The notes beneath the pieces were generated by a model. The model searched no databases, was not told the DNA's origin, and saw only the letters and a list, made by a program, of their open reading frames with translations. DNA of 42,818 bases from Marinilabiliaceae bacterium. Lineage in GTDB: Bacteria > Bacteroidota > Bacteroidia > Bacteroidales > Marinilabiliaceae. Of this stretch, positions 11,507-25,152 are shown in pieces; position 1 is the first letter of the stretch, and each line of letters starts with the position of its first letter. Where the stretch lies: positions 1 to 42,818 of the forward strand of contig JALVJU010000091.1 in the NCBI GenBank assembly GCA_027034005.1, written 5' to 3'. Made by a program: the position numbers and the translations under genes.

Positions 11507-11570
11507 AAACAAAAAGGGCGAACACCCACCAATGGCATCCGACCTTTTTTACAATCAAAGCTTATGTATT

Positions 11571-12035
11571 TTAGAAATTTTTCATTTCACTTTCCGAAAA
11601 TTGCTTAACCAACGAAAGCACGGCACTTGAACATCCCTCGGCACCGCCTTTGTATGAGAACACAAGGCTGTAAACGCCGGTCTTACCGCAGATGAATTGA
11701 CACGATTTGTAGTGTTTTCCTTTTTCAAAGTTACTTACAAGAAGCTTGTCTTTAAAGTAAAGCTGCATGATAACTTTTTCAGGATTCTCAGGGGCATCTA
11801 CCACATTAAACTTATACTGGCTCCGGCTTTGAAGAACAACAGAGAACTTAACATATCCTGTTTTCATATCTTTCTTGTCCTTAAGCAACTCAACCTTAAA
11901 ATCCTTAATATACTGGCCGTTGCCCATCTCTTTCAATGCCTGCTTCAATAATGCCTCAGAGTTGCATTCTTGTGCATATCCTGCCAGCGAGAACATTGAA
12001 AAGAGCACCAATAAACTGATAAATATTTTTTTCAT
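11571..12035 (-). CDS. small secreted protein (last gene of the signalling operon)
   Basis: The Met at 12035 gives MKKIFISLLVLFSMFSLAGYAQ signal peptide, and the mature part has four Cys. The ORF is open to 12059. Confidence 0.55.
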   Translation of the reverse strand: MKKIFISLLVLFSMFSLAGYAQECNSEALLKQALKEMGNGQYIKDFKVELLKDKKDMKTGYVKFSVVLQSRSQYKFNVVDAPENPEKVIMQLYFKDKLLVSNFEKGKHYKSCQFICGKTGVYSLVFSYKGGAEGCSSAVLSLVKQFSESEMKNF

Positions 12036-12081
12036 TCCTTTAGAATTTTCAATTGACATCCTTTTCCCTTTTATAACGAAT

Positions 12082-12999
12082 TTACGAAACTATGTATTCC
12101 CTGATCTTCTTGATCTGAGCAATAATGGCTTTCACCTGCTCAGGAGTGATATTCACATGACTGATCTCGTCCTGAATAATGATCAGAGAACCGTCTTTTT
12201 CCATTTTCTTAGGCTCGCCAAACTCAGTTGTGATCTTAACTTTGGAATACAGGCCCTTCAGATCCTGCAAATATGATGAAAGTTCCGTGAAATTCGGGTC
12301 ATTTTTATAATTTTCCAGTATGATAAGCAGGATATTTACAATATCTTTCTGCTCTCCCAGGCGGTTAATCAGTTCTTCATTATTCGTCTGCTCGATGACA
12401 CTTCCTGTAATGTACATTCCCTCGATCCATGTTCCGGCAACGATCAGTGAACTAACGTTACTGCGGTTCTGTTCGCGAAGATATGAATCCATCTCATTAA
12501 AACTTGACACTGATATCTCCATCAAAGAGTCCAGATTGTTGCTGTTGGTTGCAAGGCGCTTCAAAGCAGCAAAGTCGAAAAACTGACCTACTTTAATGCC
12601 ATCTGCAAGATTCTTCACAGCCAACAGGTAGGAAATAACGATAGAGTTCTTATCGAAAGTATTGATATATCCAAGATCGGCTGCGAAAACACCCAGGTTA
12701 AGAGCTCTTTTGAAGCTTGTGTTGTATTTATCCAGGTTGTTGGGATCGTTAAGAATCTTCTGAGAAAAAGCAACTCCGGTAGATTTTATCAGGGAAGCCA
12801 TCTCGACCGGTGACGAAATATTCTGGATTACATCACTGATAACTTCTTCAGATAATTTAAGAGGTGCATCGGTACTAAGCGAGTCTGTACTGATAAGTTC
12901 ATCCGAGTTTCCGGATTTTCCTGACGAATTTCCGGCACAACCTGACAAGAAGGCCGTACCTCCTACTATTAGTGAAATGTATAAGATCTTCTTTAGCAT
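12082..12999 (-). CDS. lipoprotein of unknown function
   Basis: 305 aa. Lipobox AFLSGCAGN followed by a Ser/Gly/Asp-rich linker. 62 nt downstream of the ABC transporter gene. Confidence 0.65.
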   Translation of the reverse strand: MLKKILYISLIVGGTAFLSGCAGNSSGKSGNSDELISTDSLSTDAPLKLSEEVISDVIQNISSPVEMASLIKSTGVAFSQKILNDPNNLDKYNTSFKRALNLGVFAADLGYINTFDKNSIVISYLLAVKNLADGIKVGQFFDFAALKRLATNSNNLDSLMEISVSSFNEMDSYLREQNRSNVSSLIVAGTWIEGMYITGSVIEQTNNEELINRLGEQKDIVNILLIILENYKNDPNFTELSSYLQDLKGLYSKVKITTEFGEPKKMEKDGSLIIIQDEISHVNITPEQVKAIIAQIKKIREYIVS

Positions 13000-13061: not shown

Positions 13062-16000
13062 TTACCTTTTACGCAATTTTAATTCACCCATATAGGTTAA
13101 TCCCTTTCTCAGGAGATCGAAGTAAAGCACGACATACAGCATGATCGTGAGCACCCATACCATGGCGATATTGAACCACAAAGTGTCGAAGAAATGTCCA
13201 AATATGTATTTCTCAGGGGCAAAGAAGTGTGTGCGGAAGTCTACTGCATTCTTCGGCTCCGGTATTTGATAGACCGGATCAACCATCTGTACCAGTTTGT
13301 CCCCGTCACGTAAAATTTTATTCTTTTCGAATACCTGTCTTACGATATCTGAGATACTCTCATTGAAATACTCGTCCTTTACACGCTCAAACCGTTCTCT
13401 GTTAGCACGGATATTTGCTTCAATGAATTTCTCTTTTTTCGTGTTTGCCGCAATGAAAAGCTTACCGTAGTATTTTTTTAGTTTGTCAAGATGTGCAGCC
13501 AGTTTATCGGCCATTTCACCATTGAATTTTCCGGGAGCCAGATCTTCAACCTCCTTGAACTGCATCGAAGGAACCCTTTTGTTCTCTTTTTCTATCTCGT
13601 TTTTCAATAGTTTAAGGTCTGCGACGAACTGTTTGTCATTTTTGTAACCCTTTTGGGTGAGGGCATTTTTTGTGCTTTCAAGAATATCGTTAAGCTCCGG
13701 GATATAGTACACCTGCTTGAAGTCTGCCTGGCTCTCCTGCATCTCTACGTTAAAAATGTTCTTTTTAAAGTTGTTGTGCTTGTATTGCTGTACCATCAGG
13801 CCCTCGTATATCCATCGTGACGGCATCCATTCTGCCACGAAAGGAACCTTGTCGACACTGGTAATGTCCTTGTTCAGCTTGTCGAAAGTAAACATAGCCC
13901 CGCCAAGGACCATCTGCGGGATCATCAGCAGAGGTATTAAGATGTAGATGGTGACAATGGAGTTGAAAGATGCAGAGATGATTAGTCCCATAATATTGGC
14001 AAAGGCAGAAATGGAGAACAGCGCCAACCAGAAATCGAAGGTCATTCCTTTGATGCCAAGAATATTGTTTGCCACCAGGACGAACAGTATCATCTGAATG
14101 GCAGAAAGGGTGAAAAGAAGCAATATCTTGGACAGGAGATAACTAGACCTGCTGAGGTTGAGGAATGATTCCCGTTTGAGTATTTTGGCATCCTTGAATA
14201 TCTCTTCGGCACTTACTATCAGCCCGAAAAACAGAGCCACAACAATAGCCATGAACATGTAAGGAGGTATGTTCACATTCTCCCTGAAGATGTACACATC
14301 AGATTCGGGATCGGCAATGTAGCGGATCAGGTATGCCAGGATAAACCCGAGTATAGGTGCCTCAAGAATGTTCAGGAGGATATACTGCTTATTGCTTATC
14401 TTTGAGAAAAAGTCCCTCAGTGTATATATCTTGAACTGATTGAACCATGACGGGATATTGAGTGACTTGGGCGGCGCCTCGTCCACATCTTCTATCTCCG
14501 GTATCTTTATGTTTTCCTTGTAGTACGAATACCACTCTTCGGGCTTGGTTTTCCTTTGGTTCGTATAATTTCCGTACTCATCGATGACATTTGAATCGAT
14601 GATGTTGAAGATAAGTTCCGGATTTAGGTTGCCACATGTGGGGCACTCTCCGTATTCACTGTTTATCTGGGCATCGAGCTTTTTGAAGTATATCAGCGAC
14701 TCACTCGGGTTCCCGTAATAAACGGGGTAACCGCCCGTGTCAAGGATGTACATTTTGTCGAACATCTTATAGATGTCGGACGAGGGCTGGTGGATGACCA
14801 CGAATATGAGTTTCCCTTTCAGGGCAAGCTCACGGAGAAGGTTCATCACATTCTCCGAGTCTCTTGACGACAAGCCGGAGGTAGGTTCATCCACAAAAAG
14901 TATTGCAGGTTCGCGTATCAGCTCCAGTGCAATGTTAAGGCGCTTTCGTTGCCCGCCACTTATCATTTTGTTCAGGGGGGAGCCCACTTTAAGGTCTTTT
15001 CTCTCGTATAGGCCAAGGTTTATGAGGGTCTTGTTTACCATCTCCGTGATCTCTTCCTTGCTTTTGTCCTTGAAACAAAGGCGCGCATTGTAATAAAGGT
15101 TCTCGAAGACGGTAAGTTCTTCTATCAGCAGATCATCCTGCGGGATAAGTCCAATAACACCCTCCAGCTTTTCTGTGTCTTTATGCAGGTCGTAACCGTT
15201 TATCAGTACCTGTCCTTCGGTAGGTGATTCTATTCCCGACAACACATTCAGAAGGGTTGTCTTACCTGCACCACTGGCACCCATTATCCCGATAAGCCTG
15301 CCCTGTTCCTCAGCAATGTTGATATTCCGCAGGCCTATCGTTCCTGTCCTGAACTGAAACTTTACATCTTTTACACGATATGATATCCGTGTTGAAGTTG
15401 CATCGGACATGAAGTGCCCTACCACATCGGTGTAGTACAGCGGCGGCCCCACAGGCAATTTAATAAAGCTGCCTTTGGGAAAAAGATAAATGCGCCTGTT
15501 GTTGATCAGCAGTCCATTCAGGAACAGTTCCTGATCGCCGGTGTAACGTATAAAGTAAAGATTTGAACTCTCGACTTTAAGGATGAACAGGTCTCCTTGT
15601 AAACCATGTGAGTTAATGAAGATCGCATTTTTAGCCTTGAAATCCTGGGCAGAAAGAATAAGCATCACCTTTCTGTCAAGTTCGGAAACCTTGTTACTAA
15701 CAATGAATGCCTCAATACTTTCAACCTCCTTCTTTGGCAGTTTGAACACATCGGCCACTGTGTTGATGATGGCCATCCTCTGATCTGTAAATTTCCTGTC
15801 GGTATTTACCAATTCGTACAAGCGAACCAGTACTACCACTTTTTGTTCCTTGTTAAGCTTCCTGTTAATCTTTTTGCAGATACCAAGGATCTTAACGGAG
15901 TCTTTCATTGAGGTAAGCTTCACCTTACCATTATCCTCTCCGCCTTTCTTAGCTTTTTCGTCCTTTATATCGGCATGCTTCAGGAAAAGTGAATAATACT

Positions 16001-16136
16001 CATGAACGGCTTCCGTATTCAACTGCTGCTTCAGAAATGTTTTAACATACTCTGTTTCATTCGACTTTACTCCGCCATCCTGCTTTGCAATTAAACCGAA
16101 CAACTGCATTAAGGCTTTTAGTATCTCTTCACTCAT
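13062..16136 (-). CDS. ABCG-type fused ATPase-permease with N-terminal TerB-like and FHA-like modules
   Basis: 1024 aa. N-terminus: LFGLIAKQDGGVKSNETEYVKTFL (TerB-like). Then LYFIRYTGDQELFLNGLLINNRRIYLFPKGSFIKL (FHA-like). ATPase motifs: Walker A GASGAGKTT, signature ISGGQRKRL, Walker B ILFVDEPTSGLS. These are followed by ABC-2 type TM helices. Confidence 0.9.
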   Translation of the reverse strand: MSEEILKALMQLFGLIAKQDGGVKSNETEYVKTFLKQQLNTEAVHEYYSLFLKHADIKDEKAKKGGEDNGKVKLTSMKDSVKILGICKKINRKLNKEQKVVVLVRLYELVNTDRKFTDQRMAIINTVADVFKLPKKEVESIEAFIVSNKVSELDRKVMLILSAQDFKAKNAIFINSHGLQGDLFILKVESSNLYFIRYTGDQELFLNGLLINNRRIYLFPKGSFIKLPVGPPLYYTDVVGHFMSDATSTRISYRVKDVKFQFRTGTIGLRNINIAEEQGRLIGIMGASGAGKTTLLNVLSGIESPTEGQVLINGYDLHKDTEKLEGVIGLIPQDDLLIEELTVFENLYYNARLCFKDKSKEEITEMVNKTLINLGLYERKDLKVGSPLNKMISGGQRKRLNIALELIREPAILFVDEPTSGLSSRDSENVMNLLRELALKGKLIFVVIHQPSSDIYKMFDKMYILDTGGYPVYYGNPSESLIYFKKLDAQINSEYGECPTCGNLNPELIFNIIDSNVIDEYGNYTNQRKTKPEEWYSYYKENIKIPEIEDVDEAPPKSLNIPSWFNQFKIYTLRDFFSKISNKQYILLNILEAPILGFILAYLIRYIADPESDVYIFRENVNIPPYMFMAIVVALFFGLIVSAEEIFKDAKILKRESFLNLSRSSYLLSKILLLFTLSAIQMILFVLVANNILGIKGMTFDFWLALFSISAFANIMGLIISASFNSIVTIYILIPLLMIPQMVLGGAMFTFDKLNKDITSVDKVPFVAEWMPSRWIYEGLMVQQYKHNNFKKNIFNVEMQESQADFKQVYYIPELNDILESTKNALTQKGYKNDKQFVADLKLLKNEIEKENKRVPSMQFKEVEDLAPGKFNGEMADKLAAHLDKLKKYYGKLFIAANTKKEKFIEANIRANRERFERVKDEYFNESISDIVRQVFEKNKILRDGDKLVQMVDPVYQIPEPKNAVDFRTHFFAPEKYIFGHFFDTLWFNIAMVWVLTIMLYVVLYFDLLRKGLTYMGELKLRKR

Positions 16137-16156
16137 AACTTAACAATAAATATCAT

Positions 16157-16537
16157 TTAGTCTTCCAGAACAATGTATTCAAAAGGTATTTCAACAATAT
16201 CGGCATACTCCTCACCTGCTTCGAGCATGTCCTCTTCGTCTTCGTGATAATGCCACTTAATGGTTACCTCCTTGCCGTTTTCCACTATCTCTTCAAATTT
16301 CAGGAGGATATCGAGGATAACCTTTGACGATGCAGTGTTGAAATATTCAAGTTTAAAATCAAATACGGTTTTATCAAGCGGATCTTCAGCATATTCATCT
16401 ATCCAGTCCATGATAGGTTCAAAGAACATATTCACATCTTCGGGAAGGGATCGTCCGGATATTTCAAAATGTCCGTTTTCCTTATCAAGTATTACATTAG
16501 GAGTATCTTCTGTTCCTTTTATATTAATGACTTCCAT
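16157..16537 (-). CDS. SiaC-like regulatory phosphoprotein (DUF1987)
   Basis: 126 aa. GTEDTPNVILDKENGHFEISGRSLPEDV..FFEPIMDWIDEY...FKLEYFNTASSKVILDIL. The Thr in YFNTAS is residue 68. Confidence 0.8.
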   Translation of the reverse strand: MEVINIKGTEDTPNVILDKENGHFEISGRSLPEDVNMFFEPIMDWIDEYAEDPLDKTVFDFKLEYFNTASSKVILDILLKFEEIVENGKEVTIKWHYHEDEEDMLEAGEEYADIVEIPFEYIVLED

Positions 16538-16552
16538 GTGTATAGATTTTAG

Positions 16553-17125
16553 TTATTTACGTTTAATAGTTGATGTTAAGATAAAAAAGCTTATGTCGTC
16601 GTTAAGCTCTTTAAACTGATAACTAAGCTTACTGCCCGTTTTTTTTGCAATATCAATTAGCCCCAGGCCTGCACCTCCTTTGTCTGACAGGCGGCCTTCA
16701 CGCATCTGTTTTTTGTACAGGGCCGACAGGTCTTCCTTGTCAAGGCTGTTCACTGTTTCAAGGCTCTCTTTCAGAGCAGGTATCTTTTCGTTTTTGATCA
16801 CGTTCCCGGTAATGATGTTATACTCGTCCTTACCGTGGCTAACCATGACAATTCCGCGTTTTTCCTCTTCGCCTTCAAGTGAATCAGCATGTTTGCTGAT
16901 ATTCTGAAGACACTCTACCATTACATGAAAGACCTTGCGCTGTACCATGTTCGATTCTTCCGATTTTGCAAGGTTCTTTTCAGTAAGGGAGGTAAACGTC
17001 TTTGTTATCTCCTGAGTAACCACTCCTTCATAAACCAGGTTGATCTCATTAGTTTTCATTGATTTATACATTTGATATGCAAAATCAAGAAAACTATGAC
17101 CTTTATTTTCATTCATCTCACCCAT
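16553..17125 (-). CDS. SiaB-like GHKL-type Ser/Thr protein kinase
   Basis: 190 aa. LVYEGVVTQEITKTFTSLTEKNL, VFHVMVECLQNISKHA (N-box-like), GGAGLGLIDIAKK (G-box-like). Sits between a PP2C phosphatase gene and a DUF1987 gene. Confidence 0.7.
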   Translation of the reverse strand: MGEMNENKGHSFLDFAYQMYKSMKTNEINLVYEGVVTQEITKTFTSLTEKNLAKSEESNMVQRKVFHVMVECLQNISKHADSLEGEEEKRGIVMVSHGKDEYNIITGNVIKNEKIPALKESLETVNSLDKEDLSALYKKQMREGRLSDKGGAGLGLIDIAKKTGSKLSYQFKELNDDISFFILTSTIKRK

Positions 17126-17149
17126 AATAAAAATTTTTCTAAATATATA

Positions 17150-19777
17150 TTATAATTCAATACCTATTAACAGAACGTCATCAACCTGCTTTTCTTCTCC
17201 CATCCAGTCGAAGAAATCCTTCGGGAAAAAACGGGAGTAGTAAGCCATTGTGTGTGACGGATCTTCCACCAACGCCTCTCTTATGCGACGTGCCTGGTAC
17301 TTCTTTTTCTTTTCCAGAGGCCCTCCGGTTTGATCCGGCAGCCCATCAGAAAATATGAATATTTTGTCACCCTTTTTATAGTTGATAATATTGTTCTCAA
17401 AATCTTTTTCTATGCGTCGGGGCAGGGGAGTCCCTCCAATACCTTTTCGCGATCCTTTGTACTCTGTCAATTCTCCGTCACGCACCAGGTACAATGGCCT
17501 GTGTGCACCGGCAAACTGAAGCTCGTTCTTTGCGGGAACTATCTTGCAAAGAGCCAGGTCCATACCATCACGGCCGTTAGCTCCTTCCTGATCCTGCTTA
17601 AGGTTTCTCCTTACTCCGTGATGCAGTCTGTCAAGGATCTCGGCAGCAGTGTAGTCTTTCTCTGTATTCACTATGTTATTCAGAAGGAAATAGCCGATGA
17701 AAGAGAGTAACGCTCCCGGAACGCCGTGTCCGGTACAATCGACGGCAGCAATATAGTAGGTGTCATCTTTCTTAAAGAACCAAGGGAAGTCGCCGCTTAC
17801 CACATCCTTAGGTCTGTAAAATATGAACGAACGAGGGAAGAACTTCTGTAACAGTTTCGTGTCAGGCAGTATCGACGACTGTATCCTCTGTGCATAGTTG
17901 ATACTGTCCGATATCTTCTTGTTTTTCTCTTTTATCTGTTGTTCGATGACCTTTATCTGTGTGATATCGTGAGCTACGAACAGTAGAGATTCAAGTTCCT
18001 TATCCTCGCCGAATTCCGGAATACCCTTTATCTCCATCACCCTTTCACCCTCCGAGCTGGTGATTTCTATCTCCTTCATTATCTCCTTGTGCTCATCACG
18101 TATTTGCACCAGTGATTCACGCACGAACTGAATAAACCTTTCATCGATGTCAAGTTCATTGACACGCTTCTTGATCAGATTAGCAGATGGAACACCCACG
18201 AACGTGGAAACTGCCGGGTTCACGTACACGAGCCGGCCTACAGTGTTAATACGTATGATCATATCAGGAGAGTTCTCCGACAGCGACTGCATCCGGCTCT
18301 TCATGCGCTCTTCTTTCTCTGCACGCTTACGCTCGGTGATATCCCTGGTGTTAAAGATAATTCCCCTGATGGCAGGGTCATGAAGCAGGTTTGTTCCTCT
18401 TGTCTCAAGGAACATTTTCTCTCCTGTTTTTTTCAGATAAGTATATTGTGCTGTCCTCTGACCTCCCGGTGTTTCAAGGAGATACTGGAACAGTTCGTTA
18501 ATCGTCTTGTACCCTTTGGGAGTAAGCATATCAGGATCCATCCCCACAACCTCGTCATCATCGTCATAACCAAGAATGCGCTTTACGGAAGGGCTTTCGA
18601 ATACAAGCTGCTGATGCTCATCGTAAATGGAAATGAACTCCGATGCATTTGTCAAAAGAGCCTCCAGCTTTTTGCGCCCGTGCTCTACCTCCTGCATCTG
18701 TGACTCGAGCATCCTGTTCGACTTCTCAAGCTGCTCCTGAGCCTCCATCATCTCAATAGCATTCTGCTTGAGCTGCTCCTCGTTCTTTTTCAGAGCTGTG
18801 GTCATCTTTTGCGATTCCTCGAGAAGCTGCTTTGTCCTTATGTTTATCCTCAGATTGTAGATTGTCTGCCCTATCATTCCGCTTAGCTCTTCCGACAGGG
18901 TCAGGACCTTTTGCGGAACATCCTCAAAAATGAAAGCTATCTCGTAAACTCCCTGCAACTCTTCTTCCTGTACCAATGGAACTATCAGAAGGCTTTTGGG
19001 CTTTCTGTCGCCAAGTATGCCTGACTGCAAAGTGAAGTAGTCGTCAGGTATCTCAGTCCTGAAAACAAGTTTCTTTTCAAAAGCTGTTTCTCCCACAAGG
19101 CCTTTGCCAACTGGTACCTCTTGCTTCATGAACCTTTGGCGTCCATAGGCATAGGTGGCAATATTTTTCAGTGATCCGTTCCCGTTGTACAGATAGAACG
19201 CTCCCTGAACTGCCGATGTGTACTTGATGATATTTTTCAATACCTCTATCGAAAGAGTTTCAAAGTCGTTGTGTATCCTAAGTATCTCGGATATCAGGTC
19301 CTTCCCTTTTGCTATCCAGTTATGAACATCTGCCTTCTCCCTGTTGTATTTCAGGTTTTCGCCGAGAGTGACAAGCACTTTTGACAAAGAGCTGTCATAT
19401 TCGGTGGAATCAAGAGAAAGGTCCCCGCGTCCTATTTTCTCGGCAAGCTGCACATTCTGCTTTGAATATTTATGTAGTTTTTCAAGCTCCTTGCGTAACT
19501 TCTGTGTCTTGTATTTGTGATAATTTAACGCAAAAAGGACACCTAACGGTAACGACAAGATAATCAGGTCGATAAACCATACGAATGTCCGGGCATGGAT
19601 CAGCAAAATAGAATTTAAAGAAAAATCATAACCGGACAGTGACGAAATTCCCGCCCACGAGGACATGTACAGGAAAATCACCAGAAACAACAAAATGTAT
19701 CTCTCCGTAACGGAAAGCACAGAGTTTGAAAAGAATTTTCTGGTCTGTTTTAATATTTTTTTCTTCTCTTTTGGCAT
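17150..19777 (-). CDS. membrane-anchored GAF-PAS-PAS sensor fused to a PP2C (SpoIIE-type) phosphatase, SiaA-like
   Basis: 875 aa. N-terminal TM helices, GAF (LVGETAF..LLIVPLV), Glu/Gln coiled coil, two PAS (FNTRDITERKRAE; VAHDITQIKVIE). PP2C motifs: SGDFPWF, AAVDCTGHGVPGALLS, IFSDGLPDQ, DDVLLIGIEL. Confidence 0.9.
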   Translation of the reverse strand: MPKEKKKILKQTRKFFSNSVLSVTERYILLFLVIFLYMSSWAGISSLSGYDFSLNSILLIHARTFVWFIDLIILSLPLGVLFALNYHKYKTQKLRKELEKLHKYSKQNVQLAEKIGRGDLSLDSTEYDSSLSKVLVTLGENLKYNREKADVHNWIAKGKDLISEILRIHNDFETLSIEVLKNIIKYTSAVQGAFYLYNGNGSLKNIATYAYGRQRFMKQEVPVGKGLVGETAFEKKLVFRTEIPDDYFTLQSGILGDRKPKSLLIVPLVQEEELQGVYEIAFIFEDVPQKVLTLSEELSGMIGQTIYNLRINIRTKQLLEESQKMTTALKKNEEQLKQNAIEMMEAQEQLEKSNRMLESQMQEVEHGRKKLEALLTNASEFISIYDEHQQLVFESPSVKRILGYDDDDEVVGMDPDMLTPKGYKTINELFQYLLETPGGQRTAQYTYLKKTGEKMFLETRGTNLLHDPAIRGIIFNTRDITERKRAEKEERMKSRMQSLSENSPDMIIRINTVGRLVYVNPAVSTFVGVPSANLIKKRVNELDIDERFIQFVRESLVQIRDEHKEIMKEIEITSSEGERVMEIKGIPEFGEDKELESLLFVAHDITQIKVIEQQIKEKNKKISDSINYAQRIQSSILPDTKLLQKFFPRSFIFYRPKDVVSGDFPWFFKKDDTYYIAAVDCTGHGVPGALLSFIGYFLLNNIVNTEKDYTAAEILDRLHHGVRRNLKQDQEGANGRDGMDLALCKIVPAKNELQFAGAHRPLYLVRDGELTEYKGSRKGIGGTPLPRRIEKDFENNIINYKKGDKIFIFSDGLPDQTGGPLEKKKKYQARRIREALVEDPSHTMAYYSRFFPKDFFDWMGEEKQVDDVLLIGIEL

Positions 19778-19793: not shown

Positions 19794-20555
19794 TTATTCG
19801 GTTATCAGATCCAGCAATTTATGATTTATCTTATCCCAGTTTTCCTTTAACGGTATTGGTTTGAACGTAGCTAACTCTATAACTCCGACTGCCCTGTTCT
19901 CATCAGCAACAGGAAGGATATAGATATATCTCGGCTTCGCCTCTCCCAGCCCGCTGTATCCCGAAAAATAATCTTCAGGAACCTCTTCGAGCTCTATCAC
20001 CTCCCGTTCGTTCAAGGCTTCGCCGTGAAGCCCTTCACCTATGTTGAAAGGAGTGACCGGCTCATCCTTTCGGATGCCGTAATTCCCTTCTACGGAAAAA
20101 TCCTGAGATTGTTTGTCGTAGACAAAGAAAAGGCCGGTTATGACCTCTAAGTTGTCCCCAAGTACCGACAATGCCTTGTTACAAAACTTGCTTTTTTCGG
20201 CAAAAGGCGGCAAATTAACAAATAAATTTTCAATATCTTCAAAAATACCTGTACCGGATTTCTTTACAGAATTATTATCCCTTGCCTCAAGTTCTTTCTT
20301 AAGATGATCTATATCTATAGTCAAACTTTCTATCTCAGAACCCTTATCCGATAACTTTTTGTGCAATCTCCGGAAAACATGATCTGAATAGTAAAGCAGC
20401 GCCAGTACTCCTGCTACTGAAACAAATTCGAACATATAGAAAGACACCGGCATATGCTCGGGCGAAATTAGATATTTTGCCAAAGCAAAAACAAAAATGA
20501 CTACGCTGAGCACGATGATACATGTCTGTTCCTTTTTTAACTTGTCTCTTTTCAT
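19794..20555 (-). CDS. two-TM protein with coiled coil and small C-terminal GAF-like domain, no output domain
   Basis: 253 aa. TM helices (IIVLSVVIFVFALA; FVSVAGVLALLYY), coiled coil, then GLHGEAL...YILPVADENRAVGVIELATF resembling a GAF core. Confidence 0.55.
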   Translation of the reverse strand: MKRDKLKKEQTCIIVLSVVIFVFALAKYLISPEHMPVSFYMFEFVSVAGVLALLYYSDHVFRRLHKKLSDKGSEIESLTIDIDHLKKELEARDNNSVKKSGTGIFEDIENLFVNLPPFAEKSKFCNKALSVLGDNLEVITGLFFVYDKQSQDFSVEGNYGIRKDEPVTPFNIGEGLHGEALNEREVIELEEVPEDYFSGYSGLGEAKPRYIYILPVADENRAVGVIELATFKPIPLKENWDKINHKLLDLITE

Positions 20556-21145
20556 ACGGCTAACTGGTTAAGATAATCTGCGATCTTCTCAGGTGTCAAA
20601 ACATGATCGGGTCGAAACAGCTTCAAAGCTGCTTTGGTCATGGTGTCGATGTCACAACTGTCAGGATCCTGGATTATGGTCGTCCCGTTCTTGTCGTGAA
20701 TATCTTTCAATCCGCTTGCCCCATCTTTATTTGCCCCGGTAAGGATTATTCCCAGGACTTTGTCACGGTATGTCTGTGCTGCCGACGAAAATGTATGGTC
20801 AATGGCAGGCCGACTGTGGTTCATTGGCTCCTCGGTTGACAAATGAAAAGTATTGTCGTACTCGATGAACAGATGATAGTTCGACGGTGCCAGATAAGCC
20901 CTGTTACCTGAAATATGGTCTTTGTCGTTCGGCTCAACAACTTTGATATTAGATTTTATGTTCAGCCCTTCCACCAGTCCGGAACGCACATGTTTAAGCC
21001 TGTGCAGACAAATAATGACAGGAATGGAAAAGCCGGGATCGATCTTCGAAAGTATTTTTGATACAACCGAAAAACTGCCCGCCGAACCGCCAATAACTAC
21101 TGCTTTATATTTTTTGTTGTCAATCATTGCTCCAGATAATTTCAA
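20552..21145 (-). CDS. CheB-type glutamate methylesterase catalytic domain only (no receiver)
   Basis: 197 aa. VVIGGSAGSFS (Ser), VIICLHRLKH (His), ILTGANKDGASGL (Asp). No REC domain upstream in frame. The start may be the Met at 21127. Confidence 0.8.
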   Translation of the reverse strand: MKLSGAMIDNKKYKAVVIGGSAGSFSVVSKILSKIDPGFSIPVIICLHRLKHVRSGLVEGLNIKSNIKVVEPNDKDHISGNRAYLAPSNYHLFIEYDNTFHLSTEEPMNHSRPAIDHTFSSAAQTYRDKVLGIILTGANKDGASGLKDIHDKNGTTIIQDPDSCDIDTMTKAALKLFRPDHVLTPEKIADYLNQLAV

Positions 21146-22016
21146 AACCGTGTTTCTTAAATACCTTTTCTTTTGTGTTCAGACACTCCAGCTTTGCATC
21201 AAAAGATTCCGGTATCCGTTCTTTGGCCCCGATGGCGATAATTCCGCCTGGCAGAAGTGCATCCCAAAACCCGGCGATACTACGCTCAGAAACTTCCTTG
21301 TCGTAATAAAGCATGTTGTTCCTGAACATGATGACAGATGTATTTTTAGGTGCACCTGTATTTAGAAAATGCCCCCGGACAGTTCGTACATTCTTCAATA
21401 GCGAATTTTTCAAAACAAAAACGTTATCCTCAAGGGAATAGTAATCCTCAAATACCCCGGAACCCTCAATCCTTACATAGTTACTGCTGTTAAGCTGAAT
21501 ATTCCGGTTGTTAAGAATGCCCTTTTCAATCTCGCTCAGCCTTTCCTCTGATACATGCTGACATATAACATTCACCATGTCCCTTATCCCCAGTTCATTA
21601 ACAAGAATGAGGAAAGAAAAGACTTCTTCGCCGGTAGATACTTCCGGGAACCAGACATTGATATTCTCGTTGGTTGACAAGCACCTGACAAGAGGCCTCA
21701 GATATCTCCAGAACCCCGGATCGCGGAACATCTCTGTTGTATCGACAGGGAAATCGTAAAAAAGACGGGCCTTGTAATCTTCCGTTTCAAGCATCTGCCT
21801 GAACATGTCAGAATTACGGATATTATGTTTTTTGAAAATATATGATAACCTCCTTTTCAGGAATGATATCGGCATATGATCATACGGCACACCGGTGCTT
21901 TCCGCCATAACTGACGAAAGCTCCTTCACTTCCCTGATACCGAAACCGGCACTCACACCGGCAACTTTCTCAGTACTCGAAATGGAAGGCATTGTTCTTG
22001 ATAAAAACCGGGCCAT
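21120..22016 (-). CDS. CheR-like protein with degenerate SAM-binding motifs (probable pseudoenzyme)
   Basis: The CheR fold is recognisable (TEMFRDPGFW; VIMFRNNMLYYD). Motif I reads VWFPEVSTGEE instead of VWSAGCSSGEE, and post-I reads VICQHVSEE instead of (A/G)TD(L/I). The start is uncertain (Met at 22016, 21992 or 21908). Confidence 0.7.
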   Translation of the reverse strand: MARFLSRTMPSISSTEKVAGVSAGFGIREVKELSSVMAESTGVPYDHMPISFLKRRLSYIFKKHNIRNSDMFRQMLETEDYKARLFYDFPVDTTEMFRDPGFWRYLRPLVRCLSTNENINVWFPEVSTGEEVFSFLILVNELGIRDMVNVICQHVSEERLSEIEKGILNNRNIQLNSSNYVRIEGSGVFEDYYSLEDNVFVLKNSLLKNVRTVRGHFLNTGAPKNTSVIMFRNNMLYYDKEVSERSIAGFWDALLPGGIIAIGAKERIPESFDAKLECLNTKEKVFKKHGFEIIWSND

Positions 22017-22827
22017 TTTTTATAAATCTTGTTTTAAAAAAACCTGTCAATCCTTCGTGATTACCAAGGATCAGCATTCCTCCGTTCGTTAATTGGTCAT
22101 GAAATCGTTTTAATATCCTGGATTGCAGGCTTGCATTGAAATATATCAGTACATTCCTACAAAATATAACGTCAAACTTCTGATAGCTGTTAAGTTCTCC
22201 TTTTACCAGGTCGTGCCTTTTAAAGTCTACATTCTCCTTCAAAAAGTCCCTGACCTTTATGATATCTTTATCCTCCTGGAATTCAAAATATTTATCAAAA
22301 CGTACCTTATCGGCAAGCTTCTTCTTGTTTATCACAGCATTAAAGTTGTCAATGATCTTCATGTTGTATCTGTGATTGTACTCGCCCTTCTTTGCATCTT
22401 TAAGCATTTTGTTGTTCAGGTCGGTGGCAACTATCCTGCTTTTGTCAAGCAGTCCCATCTCACTAAGGATTACATTGTTTGAGTAAACTTCCTGTCCTGA
22501 GGAGCATCCCGCATGCCATACATTCACAACATTCTTTTTCTTTAGAGGAACGAAATGCCTTGAATAAAGCTCATGCCATATTCCGGGATCCCGGAAAAAT
22601 TCAGTGGTATTCACTGTAATCTCCTGTACAATGTTTTCAACAAACAGAGAATCGGTCCTTGTCTTATCCATAAGTTCATCAAGACTCAGCTTATGGTCGA
22701 CCAGCACCTTGTTTATCCTTCGGTAAATGGAACTGTCAGAGTATTCACAGAAATCATACTGCGAATATTTCTTTAGCTCTTTCAGATATGTTTTTATCTC
22801 CGATATGTTGTCAACCTTGTATGTCAT
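21970..22827 (-). CDS. CheR-type protein-glutamate O-methyltransferase (second copy)
   Basis: 285 aa. TEFFRDPGIW, VWHAGCSSGQEVYS, IVATDLNNKML, VIFCRNVLIYFN. Confidence 0.85.
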   Translation of the reverse strand: MTYKVDNISEIKTYLKELKKYSQYDFCEYSDSSIYRRINKVLVDHKLSLDELMDKTRTDSLFVENIVQEITVNTTEFFRDPGIWHELYSRHFVPLKKKNVVNVWHAGCSSGQEVYSNNVILSEMGLLDKSRIVATDLNNKMLKDAKKGEYNHRYNMKIIDNFNAVINKKKLADKVRFDKYFEFQEDKDIIKVRDFLKENVDFKRHDLVKGELNSYQKFDVIFCRNVLIYFNASLQSRILKRFHDQLTNGGMLILGNHEGLTGFFKTRFIKNGPVFIKNNAFHFEY

Positions 22828-22832
22828 TCCCC

Positions 22833-24698
22833 TTAAAACAATTCTACCTCAACGTTTTGAATAAATGCAGTGAATGAATGGTCATCGCCAACCTTGGCTT
22901 CCGAAAGCAGGAACAGCACGGGGATCTCCTCACCGAATTTGGTCAGGATAGGCACTTCGCGCCTTTCACCCACAATCTTTTCCTTTTCAGGATTCACAAA
23001 AGCCGAAACGAACTCATCATTCTTTGCCGTGTCTTTACTGAACAACAGCGCTACCTGTTTGCCGAGGACTTCCTGGCGATCGTAACCGAAAAGCTTTTCT
23101 GCTGCCACGTTAAAGAATTCAATGATACCCTCCTTGTTGGTAGTAAGTATGGCATCCAAAGCGCCTTCAAGAGTCTTCTCGTTTCTGATCTTCACTGCCT
23201 CTATCTCTTTGAACTGCTCTTTAACTTCATTACGTGCCTGCTCGAGCATTATTCCAAGTTCTTCCTTACTCTTCTTAAGTTTCTCTTCCATCTTCACCTG
23301 TTCGGTGATATCGTAGTCGAGGCTTAGTATCTTGACGATCTCACCTTCGTGATCCATTACGGGAGTGTATGTTGTAAGCAGGTAGATCGCCTCACCCATT
23401 TTGGTCCTTCTCTTCACACGGCCTTTAAAATTCTTACCGTTCCTGAGATCGGCAAGTATCTTGTCCAGTTCAGGAAGATCGTCCTTGAAAAAGAATATTT
23501 TAATATTTTGGTTCTCCACCTCTTCGATGCTGTACTTAAATGCATCAAGGAAATTCCTGTTAACCGATATCAGTGTTCCGTCGGTCTCGAACTCCGAACT
23601 GATAGCCGAATGGTCGATAGCCTCAAGAATACCTTTCATTTCAAGTTCACGGCGGTCACTCTCCTCCTGTGTTGCCTGCATCTCTTCAAGGTTTTGGCGC
23701 AACTCCTCTTCCTGCTGTGCCATTTTTTCGGCCTGCTCCTGAGTCTCTTTCAGCAGCTTGCTGGTACGGATATTTGTCTGCACTGCCGAAATGGTCGATG
23801 CAATACTTTCGGCGATCTTTTCTATGAATTCTATCTCATATTTCTCGAACTCGCTGAACGATGCCAGCTCGATAACACCGAATATCTTATCATTGGCTTT
23901 AAGAGGCACTATCAAAACTGCCGAAGCATTTGCTTCTCCCAGACCGCTTGTGATATTCATGTAGTCATTGGGCACATCGGTAAGGTAGATCGTCTCCTTC
24001 TCAAGGGCACACCGCCCTATCAGTCCTTCATCCCATTTGATAGTTTTTTCGGCATATTTTTTCCTGTCGTAAGCAATGAATGCCTTAAGTTCAAAATACG
24101 GATCACCCTCCTCAGGAGTATTAAGCAGGAAGAATCCCGCCTGATTAATCTTCAGGTAGTTTACGATGTAGTGAATAATGTTGAAAGATAGTTCTTCCAG
24201 ATCGTTGTTGGTCTGGCGAAGAAGCTCCCCGAACTGTGCCAGCCCGTTGGTCACCCAGGTACGCTGTTCCTCTTCTATGCGGCGCTGCTCCTCCTCTTTT
24301 CTGTTTTTGATAAGGTATTCCTTTAGCCCAACCAGCGACTGTCCCAACTTATCATTTTTCGATGATATGGGAATGGGGCTTTCCAGGTCACCTTTCCTGA
24401 GGTTATCAATAAAGTCAAGCACCATGTTTGTCCTGCCCGACTCCTTTCGGAGCTGCTTGTTCTGTTTCTTTAGTTTTTTTGCAACTCCGCCGCCAAAATA
24501 ATATCCTGCAATGGCAGTTAAAACAGGCAGGAACAAAATAACCCACAACCCCGGGATATCTGACATGATATTTTTCAACTCATTGAATCCCCGCGTGTTC
24601 TGGCTTAACAAAACTGCAACCAACAGTACAACAAGGCCAAATGTAAAGCCTCGTAACATATATTTTTTCTGAATAGTTTTTGATTTAACTTTTTTCAT
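22833..24698 (-). CDS. membrane-anchored GAF-PAS-PAS sensor protein without output domain
   Basis: Two TM helices, GAF (LIGRCALEKETIYL...VLIVPLKANDKIFGVIELASF), Glu/Gln coiled coil, two PAS (LSLDYDITEQVKME; GIIEFFNVAAEKLFGYDRQEVLGK). The track starts at TTG 24704, but ATG at 24698 (MKKVKSK) is likelier. Confidence 0.8.
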   Translation of the reverse strand: MKKVKSKTIQKKYMLRGFTFGLVVLLVAVLLSQNTRGFNELKNIMSDIPGLWVILFLPVLTAIAGYYFGGGVAKKLKKQNKQLRKESGRTNMVLDFIDNLRKGDLESPIPISSKNDKLGQSLVGLKEYLIKNRKEEEQRRIEEEQRTWVTNGLAQFGELLRQTNNDLEELSFNIIHYIVNYLKINQAGFFLLNTPEEGDPYFELKAFIAYDRKKYAEKTIKWDEGLIGRCALEKETIYLTDVPNDYMNITSGLGEANASAVLIVPLKANDKIFGVIELASFSEFEKYEIEFIEKIAESIASTISAVQTNIRTSKLLKETQEQAEKMAQQEEELRQNLEEMQATQEESDRRELEMKGILEAIDHSAISSEFETDGTLISVNRNFLDAFKYSIEEVENQNIKIFFFKDDLPELDKILADLRNGKNFKGRVKRRTKMGEAIYLLTTYTPVMDHEGEIVKILSLDYDITEQVKMEEKLKKSKEELGIMLEQARNEVKEQFKEIEAVKIRNEKTLEGALDAILTTNKEGIIEFFNVAAEKLFGYDRQEVLGKQVALLFSKDTAKNDEFVSAFVNPEKEKIVGERREVPILTKFGEEIPVLFLLSEAKVGDDHSFTAFIQNVEVELF

Positions 24699-25152
24699 AG
24701 TCAATAAGATAATTCAGTGTTTTCCTTTTTATTTGTGAACTCTTATACGGCAGAATTTCATTAAGGTTTGGATTGATAGGAAAATATTGAAGCACGTGCA
24801 AAATCTGGAGATTATGCAAATAGATTTTCAGGAGGATTGTGTTATAACACACTTCATTTTCGCTTTGCTAATAAGGTTCCCTTTCGTTTTGTCTTTAAAG
24901 GATACTAAGGTTATGTCAGCGGTGTTTTGATATTCTTCCTACACCTCTGGCGACTATAGGGGAATGCCAACGCGCGAAAGCTCTCTTTTCGGGAATTTAA
25001 GGGTGTGGGGATGGGCATGCAATACCTCATTTATACTTAACATTTCACTAAGGTTTAATGGAAAGGATAAGATTTTCCGAAAAATACCTCAGAAAAATTT
25101 AGAAAGTATCAATGCAGCACAGGCAGGTTAAAGAAAAAAGATGTACTCCTGT

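What the first reader, a model, noticed from the sequence alone, without database searches (positions are those of the whole stretch)
13062..19777. SiaA/SiaB/SiaC-like switch with no diguanylate cyclase; an ABC transporter sits where SiaD would be
Seen in sequence:
- A PP2C phosphatase (SGDFPWF, DCTGHGVPGA), a 190-aa GHKL-like kinase and a 126-aa DUF1987 protein occur in the SiaA-SiaB-SiaC order.
- The DUF1987 protein carries YFNTASSK, with the Thr at residue 68 (codon 16334-16336).
- No GGDEF or EAL motif appears in any ORF of the window.
- The gene 20 nt downstream encodes a 1024-aa ABC ATPase-permease with TerB-like and FHA-like N-terminal modules.

Established knowledge (from memory): in Pseudomonas aeruginosa, SiaC is phosphorylated on Thr68 by SiaB and dephosphorylated by SiaA. 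Unphosphorylated SiaC activates the cyclase SiaD.

Inference: here the switch output is probably the transporter. FHA-type modules bind phospho-Thr, so a phospho-SiaC/FHA contact is an attractive mechanism.
Basis: partly seen in the sequence, partly recalled or inferred. Interest (0 to 1): 0.7.

Follow-up and report, generated by a model that had tools for sequence, protein, structure and literature searches.

The report
Phospho-switch wired to an ABC exporter
A three-protein phosphorylation switch, known from Pseudomonas for turning on a c-di-GMP-making enzyme, sits in this marine Bacteroidales bacterium and about 70 related species directly in front of an ABC export pump, so the pump is probably what the switch controls.

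Summary
On the minus strand lie a TM-GAF-PAS-PAS-PP2C phosphatase (17150-19777), a SiaB-family kinase (16553-17125), a SiaC-family protein (16157-16537) and, 20 nt on, a 1024-aa ABCG-type exporter (13062-16136). Thr68 of the SiaC-like protein aligns without gaps to P. aeruginosa SiaC Thr68. YFNTASSK is invariant in 75 orthologues. No GGDEF, EAL or HD-GYP motif occurs in any frame.

The link to the pump is strong:
- From the pump side, SiaC is adjacent in 72 of 74 species genomes and SiaB in 73 of 74.
- From the SiaC side, the pump follows in 63 of 67 metagenomic contigs.
- A lipoprotein and a small secreted protein follow the pump.
- The SiaB-SiaC-pump-lipoprotein core persists where the phosphatase is unlinked.

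The proposed phospho-Thr/FHA contact is not supported. The domain has an FHA-like fold, but it lacks the conserved Arg, Ser-x-x-His and Asn. It also occurs in distant pump relatives with no switch next door.

Best reading: unphosphorylated SiaC docks on the pump's cytoplasmic part and gates export, as MlaB does on MlaF and SiaC on SiaD. The substrate is unknown. I rate this a new variant of a known kind, of moderately high interest.

The parts
17150..19777 (-). Sensor PP2C phosphatase (SiaA-like): two N-terminal TM helices, a GAF domain, two PAS domains and a SpoIIE/PP2C catalytic domain (aa 605-875)
   Evidence: Pfam and NCBIfam scans; hydropathy. The metal-binding motifs SGDF, DCTGHGV, DGMD and SDG..DQ are invariant in 62 orthologues.
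16553..17125 (-). SiaB-family Ser/Thr protein kinase (GHKL-like), 190 aa
   Evidence: NF038262 at 173 bits against a cut-off of 85; PF19788. E = 1.4e-17 to P. aeruginosa SiaB, chain 6kko_A. The GGAGLGL motif and the N-box are invariant in 74 orthologues.
16157..16537 (-). SiaC-family (DUF1987, STAS-like) phosphoprotein, 126 aa. The phospho-acceptor Thr68 is encoded at 16334-16336.
   Evidence: PF09345 at 144 bits. Ungapped alignment to P. aeruginosa SiaC. YFNTASSK is invariant in 75 of 75 sequences. Codon checked.
15678..16136 (-). ABC exporter, N-terminal TerB-like helical domain (aa 1-153)
   Evidence: PF05099 at 30.3 bits; helical in the AlphaFold2 model. Five of the eight residues that track with SiaC linkage lie here: E4, Q19, R120, I123 and V130. 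This is a weak lead.
15387..15677 (-). ABC exporter, degenerate FHA-like beta domain (aa 154-250)
   Evidence: The top Foldseek hits are all FHA domains; the family profile hits MEK1 FHA at E = 0.2. The phospho-Thr pocket residues are not conserved.
14637..15386 (-). ABC exporter, nucleotide-binding domain (aa 251-500). Walker A (GASGAGKT), the signature (ISGGQRKR), Walker B (LFVDEPT) and the H-loop (HQPS) are all intact.
   Evidence: PF00005 at 111 bits. 51% of columns are invariant in 76 orthologues. Best full-domain PDB relatives are ABCG1 and ABCG2.
13065..14636 (-). ABC exporter, ABC-2/ABCG-type membrane domain. It has five strong TM helices (aa 586-745), a poorly conserved helical insert of about 235 aa (aa 750-984, probably periplasmic), a last TM helix (aa 985-1008) and a Lys/Arg-rich tail.
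   Evidence: PF01061 at 72 bits; hydropathy and charge counts; conservation. The topology is inferred, not modelled.
12082..12999 (-). Conserved lipoprotein, 305 aa (lipobox LSGC), with no known family. It is co-transcribed partner 1 of the exporter.
   Evidence: It follows the exporter in 77 of 78 loci. No Pfam or PDB hit. The AlphaFold2 model shows a helical repeat plus a small beta/alpha domain, with no fold match.
11571..12059 (-). Small secreted protein, 162 aa (signal peptide, four Cys). It is co-transcribed partner 2 of the exporter.
   Evidence: Present in 62 of 72 loci. No Pfam or PDB hit.
11519..11541 (-). Terminator-like hairpin with a T-run, 30 nt after the last gene. It is the likely end of the operon.
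19794..24704 (-). Upstream genes of the same conserved block: a TM-GAF-PAS-PAS protein (22833-24704), CheR (21970-22827), a CheR-like protein (21120-22016), a catalytic-domain-only CheB (20552-21145) and a TM-GAF protein (19794-20555)
   Evidence: Pfam. The same order occurs in Marinilabilia, Saccharicrinis and most of the 80 loci.
25153..34821 (-). Chemosensory (Che) operon. Gene order: YfiR/HmsC-like, MCP, CheY, CheA, CheW, CheW, CheR, HisKA-HATPase protein, CheD, CheB.
   Evidence: Pfam. CheD and CheB lie upstream of the block in L001 and L002 as well.

Best explanation
This is a SiaABC-type partner-switching module whose output is the adjacent ABC exporter rather than a diguanylate cyclase.

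Shown:
- A membrane-bound GAF-PAS-PAS sensor phosphatase of the PP2C type, a SiaB-family kinase and a SiaC-family phosphoprotein are encoded together. The phosphoprotein has the same Thr68 acceptor loop as P. aeruginosa SiaC.
- They are almost certainly co-transcribed with an ABCG-type half-transporter, a lipoprotein and a small secreted protein.
- This arrangement is conserved across Marinilabiliaceae, Salinivirgaceae and many unnamed Bacteroidales.

Inferred:
- SiaB keeps SiaC phosphorylated on Thr68.
- Signals reach the phosphatase through its GAF/PAS domains. The upstream Che pathway and the dedicated CheR/CheB pair may feed in as well.
- The activated phosphatase removes the phosphate.
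- Unphosphorylated SiaC then docks on the cytoplasmic part of the exporter dimer and changes its ATPase or transport activity. The N-terminal TerB-like domain is the best lead for the docking site; the NBD is the precedent-based alternative.
- Phosphorylation of Thr68 breaks the contact sterically, as in SiaC-SiaD and as proposed for MlaB-MlaF.
- Together with its periplasmic insert, the lipoprotein and the secreted protein, the exporter moves an unknown envelope or extracellular substrate.
- The FHA-like domain is a structural or protein-contact module, not a phospho-Thr reader.
For: 1. Module identity: NCBIfam SiaB_fam_kinase at 173 bits (cut-off 85) and Pfam SiaC at 144 bits. Matches to the solved P. 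aeruginosa SiaB and SiaC have E of 1e-17 to 1e-18.
2. Thr68: the alignment is ungapped, and Y65-F-N-T-A-S-S-K72 is invariant in 75 of 75 sequences. The catalytic motifs of the phosphatase and kinase are invariant.
3. No GGDEF, EAL or HD-GYP domain occurs in the window.
4. Linkage seen from the exporter side, in 80 species-representative genomes with the exporter 58-89% identical: SiaC is adjacent in 72 of 74, SiaB in 73 of 74, and the lipoprotein in 77 of 78. The SiaC-to-ABC spacers are mostly 15-70 nt.
5. Linkage seen from the SiaC side, in metagenomes: the exporter follows in 63 of 67 loci and SiaB precedes in 66 of 66.
6. The core survives rearrangement. In seven Carboxylicivirga-group loci and in L080, SiaB-SiaC-ABC-lipoprotein-small protein stays together, while the phosphatase/Che block is replaced upstream by unrelated genes.
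7. The link recurs at long distance, in exporters 41-51% identical:
   - SiaB-SiaC-ABC in L087 and L091.
   - In L089 a histidine kinase precedes SiaC, and the SiaC gene overlaps the ABC start by 8 nt.
8. Precedents for the mechanism:
   - Unphosphorylated SiaC binds SiaD through N67/T68/S69, and phosphorylation abolishes the binding. The authors propose that DUF1987 proteins modulate adjacent proteins (PMC8457831).
   - The STAS protein MlaB binds the ABC ATPase MlaF with Thr52 at the interface, and T52E weakens the binding (PMC7367683).
9. Residues that are invariant in SiaC-linked exporters but differ in unlinked relatives cluster in the TerB-like domain: 5 of 8, Fisher p = 0.002. The true trio of linked distant members ranks first of 84 trios.
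Against: - No physical interaction was tested.
- Six of nine distant exporter relatives (28-40% N-terminal identity) keep the TerB and FHA-like domains but have no SiaB or SiaC within the DNA held, which reaches 1.3-5 kb upstream. The pump therefore does not need the switch in cis.
- In an insect-gut lineage the GAF-PP2C-SiaB-SiaC block and the exporter are unlinked (L026, L122, L126-L128).
- L042 has SiaB but no SiaC in front of the exporter.
- Cytophagales plasmids carry SiaB-SiaC pairs with neither a cyclase nor this exporter beside them.
- The TerB signal is partly phylogenetic, because L088, the closest unlinked relative, behaves like the linked ones.
- Whole genomes could not be scanned for a distant GGDEF partner.
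- Neither the substrate nor the sign of regulation is known.
Confidence: 0.6

Rival explanations
1. Phosphorylated SiaC is the active species, and its phospho-Thr68 is read by the FHA-like domain of the exporter, as FHA domains read phospho-Thr in Rv1747-type transporters.
For: The domain between the TerB-like domain and the NBD has an FHA-like fold. An FHA-ABC exporter regulated by Ser/Thr phosphorylation exists in mycobacteria (Rv1747 with PknF; from my own knowledge, not checked here). The position equivalent to the canonical Ser in the beta4-beta5 loop is Ser or Thr in most orthologues shown (sequences printed).
Against: Pfam FHA gives no hit. No Arg and no Ser-x-x-His is conserved, and residues 147-178 have no invariant column in 76 orthologues. 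The canonical Asn aligns to a variable Gln/Glu/His/Tyr/Lys position. The same degenerate domain occurs in relatives with no SiaB/SiaC nearby. In P. aeruginosa, phosphorylation abolishes target binding rather than creating it.
Confidence: 0.08
2. A classical partner switch with the kinase as effector. SiaB binds the exporter and either inhibits or phosphorylates it. Unphosphorylated SiaC acts only by pulling SiaB off, as RsbV does with RsbW.
For: This is the logic of the archetypal systems (PMC7647112). L042 keeps TPR-PP2C-SiaB directly before the exporter with no SiaC gene. SiaB is adjacent slightly more often than SiaC, 73 against 72 of 74 loci.
Against: L089 keeps SiaC, overlapping the exporter start, without an adjacent SiaB-family gene. 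In P. aeruginosa it is SiaC, not SiaB, that contacts the output. L042 is a single MAG contig, and SiaC could be encoded elsewhere in that genome.
Confidence: 0.12
3. The adjacency reflects shared transcription only. SiaC controls an unlinked target, such as a diguanylate cyclase, another enzyme or a sigma/anti-sigma pair. The exporter, lipoprotein and secreted protein are merely co-expressed cargo of the same operon.
For: The module and the exporter are separable in insect-gut lineages. Distant exporters lack the switch. SiaB-SiaC pairs exist without any obvious neighbouring output in Cytophagales. Whole genomes were not scanned for GGDEF genes.
Against: The SiaB-SiaC-exporter core stays intact when everything upstream changes. 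It recurs in three distant branches with different kinases or phosphatases around it. In L089 the SiaC and ABC genes overlap by 8 nt. Where the canonical cyclase output exists, it occupies exactly this position after SiaC, as in Caballeronia.
Confidence: 0.2

Closest known systems
SiaABCD of Pseudomonas aeruginosa (PA0172-PA0169)
   Same: The gene order is PP2C phosphatase, then SiaB kinase, then SiaC phosphoprotein, then output gene. The kinase and phosphoprotein are homologous (E of 1e-17 to 1e-18 to the solved proteins). The acceptor loop N67-T68 is identical.
   Different: There is no SiaD or GGDEF gene; an ABCG-type exporter occupies that slot. All three proteins score below NCBIfam's equivalog cut-offs: 162 against 700, 92 against 225 and 92 against 150. 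The phosphatase has a TM-GAF-PAS-PAS input region instead of the P. aeruginosa SiaA N-terminus; only the last 260 or so residues match. The module lies at the end of a Che-type cluster.
MlaB-MlaF in the MlaFEDB lipid transporter (E. coli)
   Same: A small STAS-type protein is encoded with an ABC transporter and regulates it by binding its cytoplasmic ATPase. A Thr at the classical phospho-site sits in the interface, and a phosphomimetic weakens binding (PMC7367683). SiaC is structurally STAS-related (PMC8457831).
   Different: No kinase or phosphatase is known for MlaB, and its phosphoregulation is called an open question. Here both enzymes are encoded next door. The transporter type differs (ABCG-like fused NBD-TMD against MlaE/MlaF). 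Binding of SiaC to this exporter is inferred, not shown.
Rv1747 of Mycobacterium tuberculosis, an FHA-FHA-ABC exporter regulated by the kinase PknF
   Same: An ABC-2/ABCG-like exporter carries an N-terminal FHA-type domain and is under Ser/Thr phosphorylation control.
   Different: Rv1747 has canonical phospho-Thr-binding FHA domains and is itself phosphorylated by a Hanks-type kinase. Here the FHA-like domain has lost the binding residues, the kinase is GHKL-like, and the substrate is a separate STAS-like protein.
Partner-switching systems with enzyme outputs: HsbR-HsbA-HsbD, BgrSTUWV-BgrR, and HenR-All4160 of Anabaena
   Same: A PP2C phosphatase and a kinase set the phosphorylation state of a small STAS-type protein. 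That protein binds and regulates a non-sigma target, and the unphosphorylated form is the active one.
   Different: The outputs described so far are diguanylate cyclases or a polysaccharide-synthesis enzyme. I found no described case with an ABC exporter as output.

Membership tests
SiaABCD signalling system (P. aeruginosa type) | SiaC-family (DUF1987) phosphoprotein with the Thr68 acceptor | tested here: met
   PF09345 at 144 bits. The alignment to chain 6kko_C is ungapped. Thr68 within NT[AS]S is invariant in 75 of 75 sequences. It falls below the NCBIfam equivalog cut-off, 91.5 against 150.
SiaABCD signalling system (P. aeruginosa type) | SiaB-family protein kinase encoded next to SiaC | tested here: met
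   NF038262 at 173 bits against a cut-off of 85. E = 1.4e-17 to chain 6kko_A. The equivalog model NF038264 is not reached, 91.8 against 225.
SiaABCD signalling system (P. aeruginosa type) | SiaA PP2C phosphatase encoded upstream | tested here: inconclusive
   The PP2C domain is present with intact metal motifs. It matches only positions 394-654 of the SiaA model, at 162 bits against a cut-off of 700. The sensor part is different.
SiaABCD signalling system (P. aeruginosa type) | SiaD, a GGDEF diguanylate cyclase, as the output gene after SiaC | tested here: not met
   No GGDEF motif or domain occurs in the window. An ABC exporter occupies the slot in 72 of 74 genomes. The canonical arrangement was seen for comparison in Caballeronia. 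Not tested: a cyclase encoded elsewhere in the genome.
FHA domain (phospho-Thr-binding module) | FHA beta-sandwich fold | tested here: met
   The top 7 Foldseek PDB hits and most of the top 45 are FHA domains, with probability 0.9-1.0 and a target TM-score of 0.45-0.56, but E of 0.017 or worse. The family profile hits only MEK1 FHA, at E = 0.2.
FHA domain (phospho-Thr-binding module) | Sequence membership (Pfam PF00498) | tested here: not met
   No FHA hit at E <= 0.01.
FHA domain (phospho-Thr-binding module) | Conserved Arg (beta3-beta4 loop), Ser-x-x-His (beta4-beta5 loop) and Asn (beta6-beta7 loop) that bind the phospho-Thr peptide | tested here: not met
   No invariant Arg, Ser or His occurs in aa 147-192 of 76 orthologues or of 47 distant representatives. 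The canonical Asn of S-x-N-G-T aligns to Q202, which varies as Q/E/H/Y/K/T. The placement of the first two loops rests on my manual alignment to the secondary structure of the model.
TerB domain | Pfam PF05099 match above the gathering score; helical bundle | tested here: met
   30.3 bits against 24.4, aa 8-141. The AlphaFold2 model is all-helical over aa 3-153. A Foldseek hit to the P. gingivalis protein PG1108 (2h5n) is weak.
ABCG-type (type V, ABC-2) exporter | NBD preceding an ABC-2 membrane domain on one polypeptide, with intact ATPase motifs | tested here: met
   PF00005 at 111 bits and PF01061 at 72 bits. TIGR00955 scores 258 bits, below its cut-off. ABCG1 aligns over aa 269-756. Walker A, the signature, Walker B and the H-loop are read directly from the sequence and are invariant.
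STAS-protein-regulated ABC transporter (MlaFB type) | Direct binding of the STAS-like protein to the transporter's cytoplasmic domain | not testable with these tools
Only genomic linkage and a weak residue-tracking signal are available.

The most novel reading that the evidence does not exclude
The whole 23-kb cluster may be one signalling chain that ends in export rather than in a flagellar motor or in transcription. In this reading:
- A Che-type chemosensory pathway feeds in at the top.
- A second, dedicated CheR/CheR-like/CheB set methylates the Glu/Gln-rich coiled coils of the membrane GAF-PAS proteins, including the PP2C phosphatase itself.
- The phosphatase then resets a SiaB/SiaC phospho-switch.
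- The switch gates a trans-envelope ABC exporter, formed by the pump, its periplasmic insert, the lipoprotein and the secreted protein, in non-flagellated Bacteroidales.

If true, this would be a new output class for both chemosensory and partner-switching systems. It would also be the first natural case of a kinase/phosphatase-controlled STAS-like subunit of an ABC transporter.
Probability: 0.2. Interest if true: 0.85.

Novelty: new variant of a known kind. Interest (0 to 1): 0.62.

Why it matters
Post-translational control of ABC exporters by accessory proteins is poorly understood. The MlaFB work left open whether STAS-type subunits of ABC transporters are ever switched by phosphorylation (PMC7367683). 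This locus supplies a natural candidate with all the parts encoded together: kinase, phosphatase, phosphoprotein and pump. It is conserved in more than 70 species, so the idea can be tested directly with four purified proteins.

It also gives the first concrete non-cyclase output for the widespread SiaB/SiaC (DUF6272/DUF1987) pair. That output was predicted only in general terms (PMC8457831).

Finally, it points to an uncharacterised family of TerB-FHA-like ABC exporters with about 1000 residues. The family comprises 640 clusters at 50% identity, and neither substrate nor function is known for any member.

Tried and rejected
1. Co-folding SiaC with exporter aa 1-500, as a linker fusion with a 22-row paired alignment built from the same genomes.

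2. Function of the conserved 305-aa lipoprotein.
   - Pfam, NCBIfam and PDB sequence searches were empty.
   - All 1711 homologues are 'hypothetical'.
   - The AlphaFold2 model (pLDDT 70) gave no Foldseek match better than designed helical repeats, E = 0.05 or worse.
   - The 162-aa protein likewise gave nothing.

3. Literature. No paper links DUF1987, DUF6272 or the SiaB family to ABC transporters or to Bacteroidota. A search on GGDEF scarcity in Bacteroidetes gave nothing usable.

4. Sigma-70 promoter scan. The count matched random expectation (32 against 29.5), and Bacteroidota promoters are not covered, so I did not use it. I kept only the terminator-like site after the last gene.

5. The C-terminal 235-aa region as a cytoplasmic coiled-coil stalk for SiaC, by analogy with the SiaD stalk. 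I rejected this because hydropathy and the positive-inside rule place the region in the periplasm, and because it is the least conserved part of the protein, with 5% invariant columns.

6. Residue tracking between SiaC-linked and unlinked exporters. I kept this only as a weak lead, because the nearest unlinked relative behaves like the linked ones.


Full report
**1. What is in the sequence**

All relevant genes lie on the minus strand. Reading 5' to 3':
- An 875-aa protein (17150-19777) with two N-terminal hydrophobic helices, one GAF domain, two PAS domains and a SpoIIE/PP2C domain.
- A 190-aa SiaB-family kinase (16553-17125). NCBIfam NF038262 scores 173 bits against a cut-off of 85, and Pfam gives DUF6272.
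- A 126-aa SiaC-family protein (16157-16537), with Pfam SiaC at 144 bits.
- After a 20-nt spacer, a 1024-aa ABC protein (13062-16136).
- A 305-aa lipoprotein (12082-12999) and a 162-aa secreted protein (11571-12059), neither belonging to any known family.
- A terminator-like hairpin at 11541-11519.

The Thr68 codon is ACT at 16334-16336. No GGDEF, EAL or HD-GYP motif occurs in any frame, and Pfam scans of the window's genes show none.

**2. Homology to the Pseudomonas switch**

The kinase matches the solved P. aeruginosa SiaB at E = 1.4e-17, and the small protein matches SiaC at E = 1.3e-18. The SiaC alignment is ungapped over residues 3-120.

I checked the numbering against residues named in the structural paper: Q10, D29, Y31, Y65, N67, T68, S69, I71 and M75. 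Thr68 is therefore the true equivalent of the phospho-acceptor.

In 75 orthologues the stretch Y65-F-N-T-A-S-S-K72 never varies. The metal-binding motifs of the phosphatase are invariant in 62 orthologues. The glycine-rich ATP lid and the N-box of the kinase are invariant in 74. All three proteins therefore look active.

They are relatives, not orthologues. Each scores below NCBIfam's equivalog cut-off, and the phosphatase matches SiaA only in its catalytic 260 residues.

**3. Is the transporter really tied to the switch?**

The exporter is 70% or more identical throughout Marinilabiliales. The complete gene order of the window is found in Marinilabilia salmonicolor and in Saccharicrinis aurantiacus.

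A scan of one genome per species returned 80 loci with the exporter 58-89% identical. Counting only loci with enough flanking DNA:

| Neighbour of the exporter | Loci with it / loci scored |
|---|---|
| SiaC directly upstream | 72 / 74 |
| SiaB upstream | 73 / 74 |
| GAF-PAS-PP2C protein upstream | 60 / 69 |
| Lipoprotein downstream | 77 / 78 |
| Small secreted protein downstream | 62 / 72 |

The converse test started from SiaC in metagenomes. The exporter lies directly downstream in 63 of 67 contigs, and SiaB lies upstream in 66 of 66.

Two observations argue that the tie is to the exporter and not simply to the operon.
- In seven Carboxylicivirga-group loci and in L080 the phosphatase/Che block is absent. 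It is replaced by PorZ-like, DUF3352, oxidoreductase and acetyltransferase genes. Yet SiaB-SiaC-exporter-lipoprotein-small protein stays together.
- The link recurs in exporters only 41-51% identical. L087 and L091 carry SiaB-SiaC-exporter. In L089 a PAS histidine kinase precedes SiaC, whose gene overlaps the exporter start by 8 nt, and a PAS-PP2C gene lies nearby on the other strand.

**4. Limits of the association**

The exporter's N-terminal 249 residues define a family of 640 clusters at 50% identity. Its full-length members are all about 990-1110 aa long.

Of nine distant members whose contigs I read, six (28-40% N-terminal identity) have no SiaB or SiaC within the DNA held, which reaches 1.3-5 kb upstream. 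All six still keep the TerB-like and FHA-like domains. The pump, usually with its lipoprotein, is therefore older than the association, and the switch was recruited in one subclade.

Further exceptions:
- In insect-gut lineages the two units are separated. L126 and L128 carry (GAF-)PP2C-SiaB-SiaC followed by unrelated genes. L026, from the same termite metagenome, has the exporter alone beside ExbB/ExbD genes.
- One MAG (L042) has TPR-PP2C-SiaB-exporter with no SiaC detectable even at E < 10.
- Outside this clade, SiaB-SiaC pairs occur with the canonical GGDEF gene in Caballeronia. In Cytophagales plasmids they occur with no obvious output.

**5. The transporter**

Residues 251-500 form a standard NBD with all ATPase motifs, and residues 560-790 match ABC-2. 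The best full-length structural relatives by sequence are ABCG1 and ABCG2.

Hydropathy shows five strong helices (586-745) and one more at 985-1008, followed by a tail with six Lys/Arg residues. By the positive-inside rule, the poorly conserved helical segment of about 235 residues (750-984) should be a periplasmic insert between TM5 and the last TM. This is an inference; no 3D coordinates were available to me.

A periplasmic insert, a lipoprotein and a secreted protein together suggest a trans-envelope export route. The substrate is unknown. The lipoprotein model is a helical repeat plus a small beta/alpha domain. It matches nothing in the PDB.

**6. The N-terminal modules and the phospho-Thr idea**

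TerB is a genuine Pfam hit. An AlphaFold2 model of residues 1-262 gives a helical domain (3-153) and a beta domain (158-235) with pLDDT above 85.

The best PDB matches of the beta domain are consistently FHA domains. A family profile finds only the MEK1 FHA domain. 'FHA-like' is therefore fair as a description of the fold.

The residues that make an FHA domain a phospho-Thr reader are missing, however.
- Residues 147-178, which hold the loops where the Arg and the Ser-x-x-His should sit, have no invariant column in 76 orthologues.
- The Asn of the S-x-N-G-T loop aligns to Q202, which varies.
- Across 47 distant full-length representatives only G200, L-N-G and G-S are conserved.

The domain is also present where no switch is encoded nearby. 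In addition, phosphorylation of SiaC abolishes target binding in P. aeruginosa. Together these points make the phospho-SiaC/FHA contact unlikely; I put it at about 0.08.

**7. Where might SiaC dock?**

I looked for positions that are invariant in all SiaC-linked exporters, including the three distant ones, but differ in at least five of six unlinked relatives. Eight such positions exist. Five lie in the TerB-like domain (E4, Q19, R120, I123, V130), and none lies in the FHA-like domain or the NBD (Fisher p = 0.002).

The true trio of linked distant members gave the highest count of all 84 possible trios. The nearest unlinked relative (L088) partly behaves like the linked ones, so phylogeny contributes to the signal. 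I treat this as a lead, not a result.

The MlaB-MlaF precedent would instead suggest the NBD.

**8. Most likely mechanism**

SiaB phosphorylates SiaC on Thr68. The sensor PP2C removes the phosphate when its GAF/PAS inputs are satisfied, and perhaps when the upstream Che pathway is as well.

Unphosphorylated SiaC then binds the cytoplasmic part of the exporter dimer and changes its activity. Phosphorylation breaks the complex.

The shown steps are the identity of the parts, the conservation of their catalytic and acceptor residues, and the genomic coupling. The inferred steps are the direct contact, its site, its sign and the substrate. My confidence in the overall statement is 0.6.

The rivals are set out separately:
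- the kinase as the effector (0.12);
- an unlinked target with mere co-expression of the exporter (0.2);
- the FHA/phospho-Thr model (0.08).

**9. Comparison with what is known, and novelty**

The module works like SiaABC but is not a member of SiaABCD. The defining cyclase is absent, and the proteins fall below the equivalog thresholds.

The closest functional precedents are MlaB-MlaF and the partner switches with enzyme outputs. In MlaB-MlaF a STAS protein binds an ABC ATPase, and phosphoregulation is hypothesised but no enzymes are known. The enzyme-output switches are HsbA-HsbD, BgrV-BgrR and All4160 of Anabaena.

The authors of the SiaC-SiaD structure already proposed that DUF1987 proteins modulate adjacent proteins. 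NCBI already names 'SiaB family protein kinase' in Bacteroidota records. I found no paper describing an ABC exporter as the output or describing this exporter family.

I therefore classify the finding as a new variant of a known kind. Interest is moderately high, because it makes phosphoregulation of an ABC transporter by a STAS-like subunit directly testable.

Noticed in passing
window 19794-24704 (minus strand): A second CheR, a CheR-like protein and a catalytic-domain-only CheB sit between two membrane GAF(-PAS) proteins, directly upstream of the PP2C gene. This is separate from the complete Che operon. The GAF-PAS proteins and the PP2C protein have Glu/Gln-rich coiled-coil stretches (for example EEQLKQNAIEMMEAQEQLEKS), which could be methylation substrates. 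The order is conserved in most of the 80 loci.
   Followed up: partly
window 34276-34821 (minus strand): A YfiR/HmsC-like protein (DUF4154, 115 bits) heads the Che operon. YfiR is known as the periplasmic repressor of the diguanylate cyclase YfiN (from my own knowledge), yet no GGDEF gene is present in the window.
   Followed up: no
window 26829-27728 (minus strand): A 299-aa HisKA-HATPase protein with no sensor or receiver domain sits inside the Che operon, between CheR and CheD. Its partner is unknown.
   Followed up: no
window 13185-13889 (exporter aa 750-984): A helical insert of about 235 aa, poorly conserved (5% invariant columns), lies between the fifth and the last TM helix of the ABC-2 domain. 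It has no Pfam match and is probably periplasmic by the positive-inside rule.
   Followed up: partly
L042 7384-8001: A groundwater Bacteroidia MAG has TPR-TM-SpoIIE, then SiaB, then the exporter 29 nt later. No SiaC gene is found anywhere in the 19-kb locus.
   Followed up: partly
L089 1-9798: In an exporter 41% identical, a PAS histidine kinase (not a SiaB-family kinase) precedes SiaC. The SiaC gene overlaps the exporter start by 8 nt. A divergent cluster nearby encodes PAS-PAS-SpoIIE, FIST, a HATPase_c protein and a receiver protein.
   Followed up: partly
L088 4440-8465: Besides the copy directly after the exporter, this contig carries two further paralogues of the 305-aa lipoprotein on the opposite strand, 29-31% identical to the window protein.
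   Followed up: no
L085 1-7112 (Caballeronia plasmid p2): The canonical SpoIIE-SiaB-DUF1987-GGDEF operon lies next to a divergently transcribed giant protein of at least 1300 aa annotated 'chemotaxis protein CheB'. An association between CheB/CheR-type enzymes and Sia-type switches may therefore be older than the Bacteroidales cluster.
   Followed up: no
window 24705-25152: A 448-nt non-coding gap separates the Che operon (CheB ends at 25153) from the GAF-PAS gene that starts the second block. It is the only long intergenic region in the 23-kb cluster and a likely internal promoter region.
   Followed up: no
window 21970-22016: The CheR ORF (21970-22827) and the CheR-like ORF (21120-22016) overlap by 47 nt as listed. 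Orthologues of the CheR-like protein are 270-273 aa long against 298 aa here, so its true start is probably further downstream.
   Followed up: no
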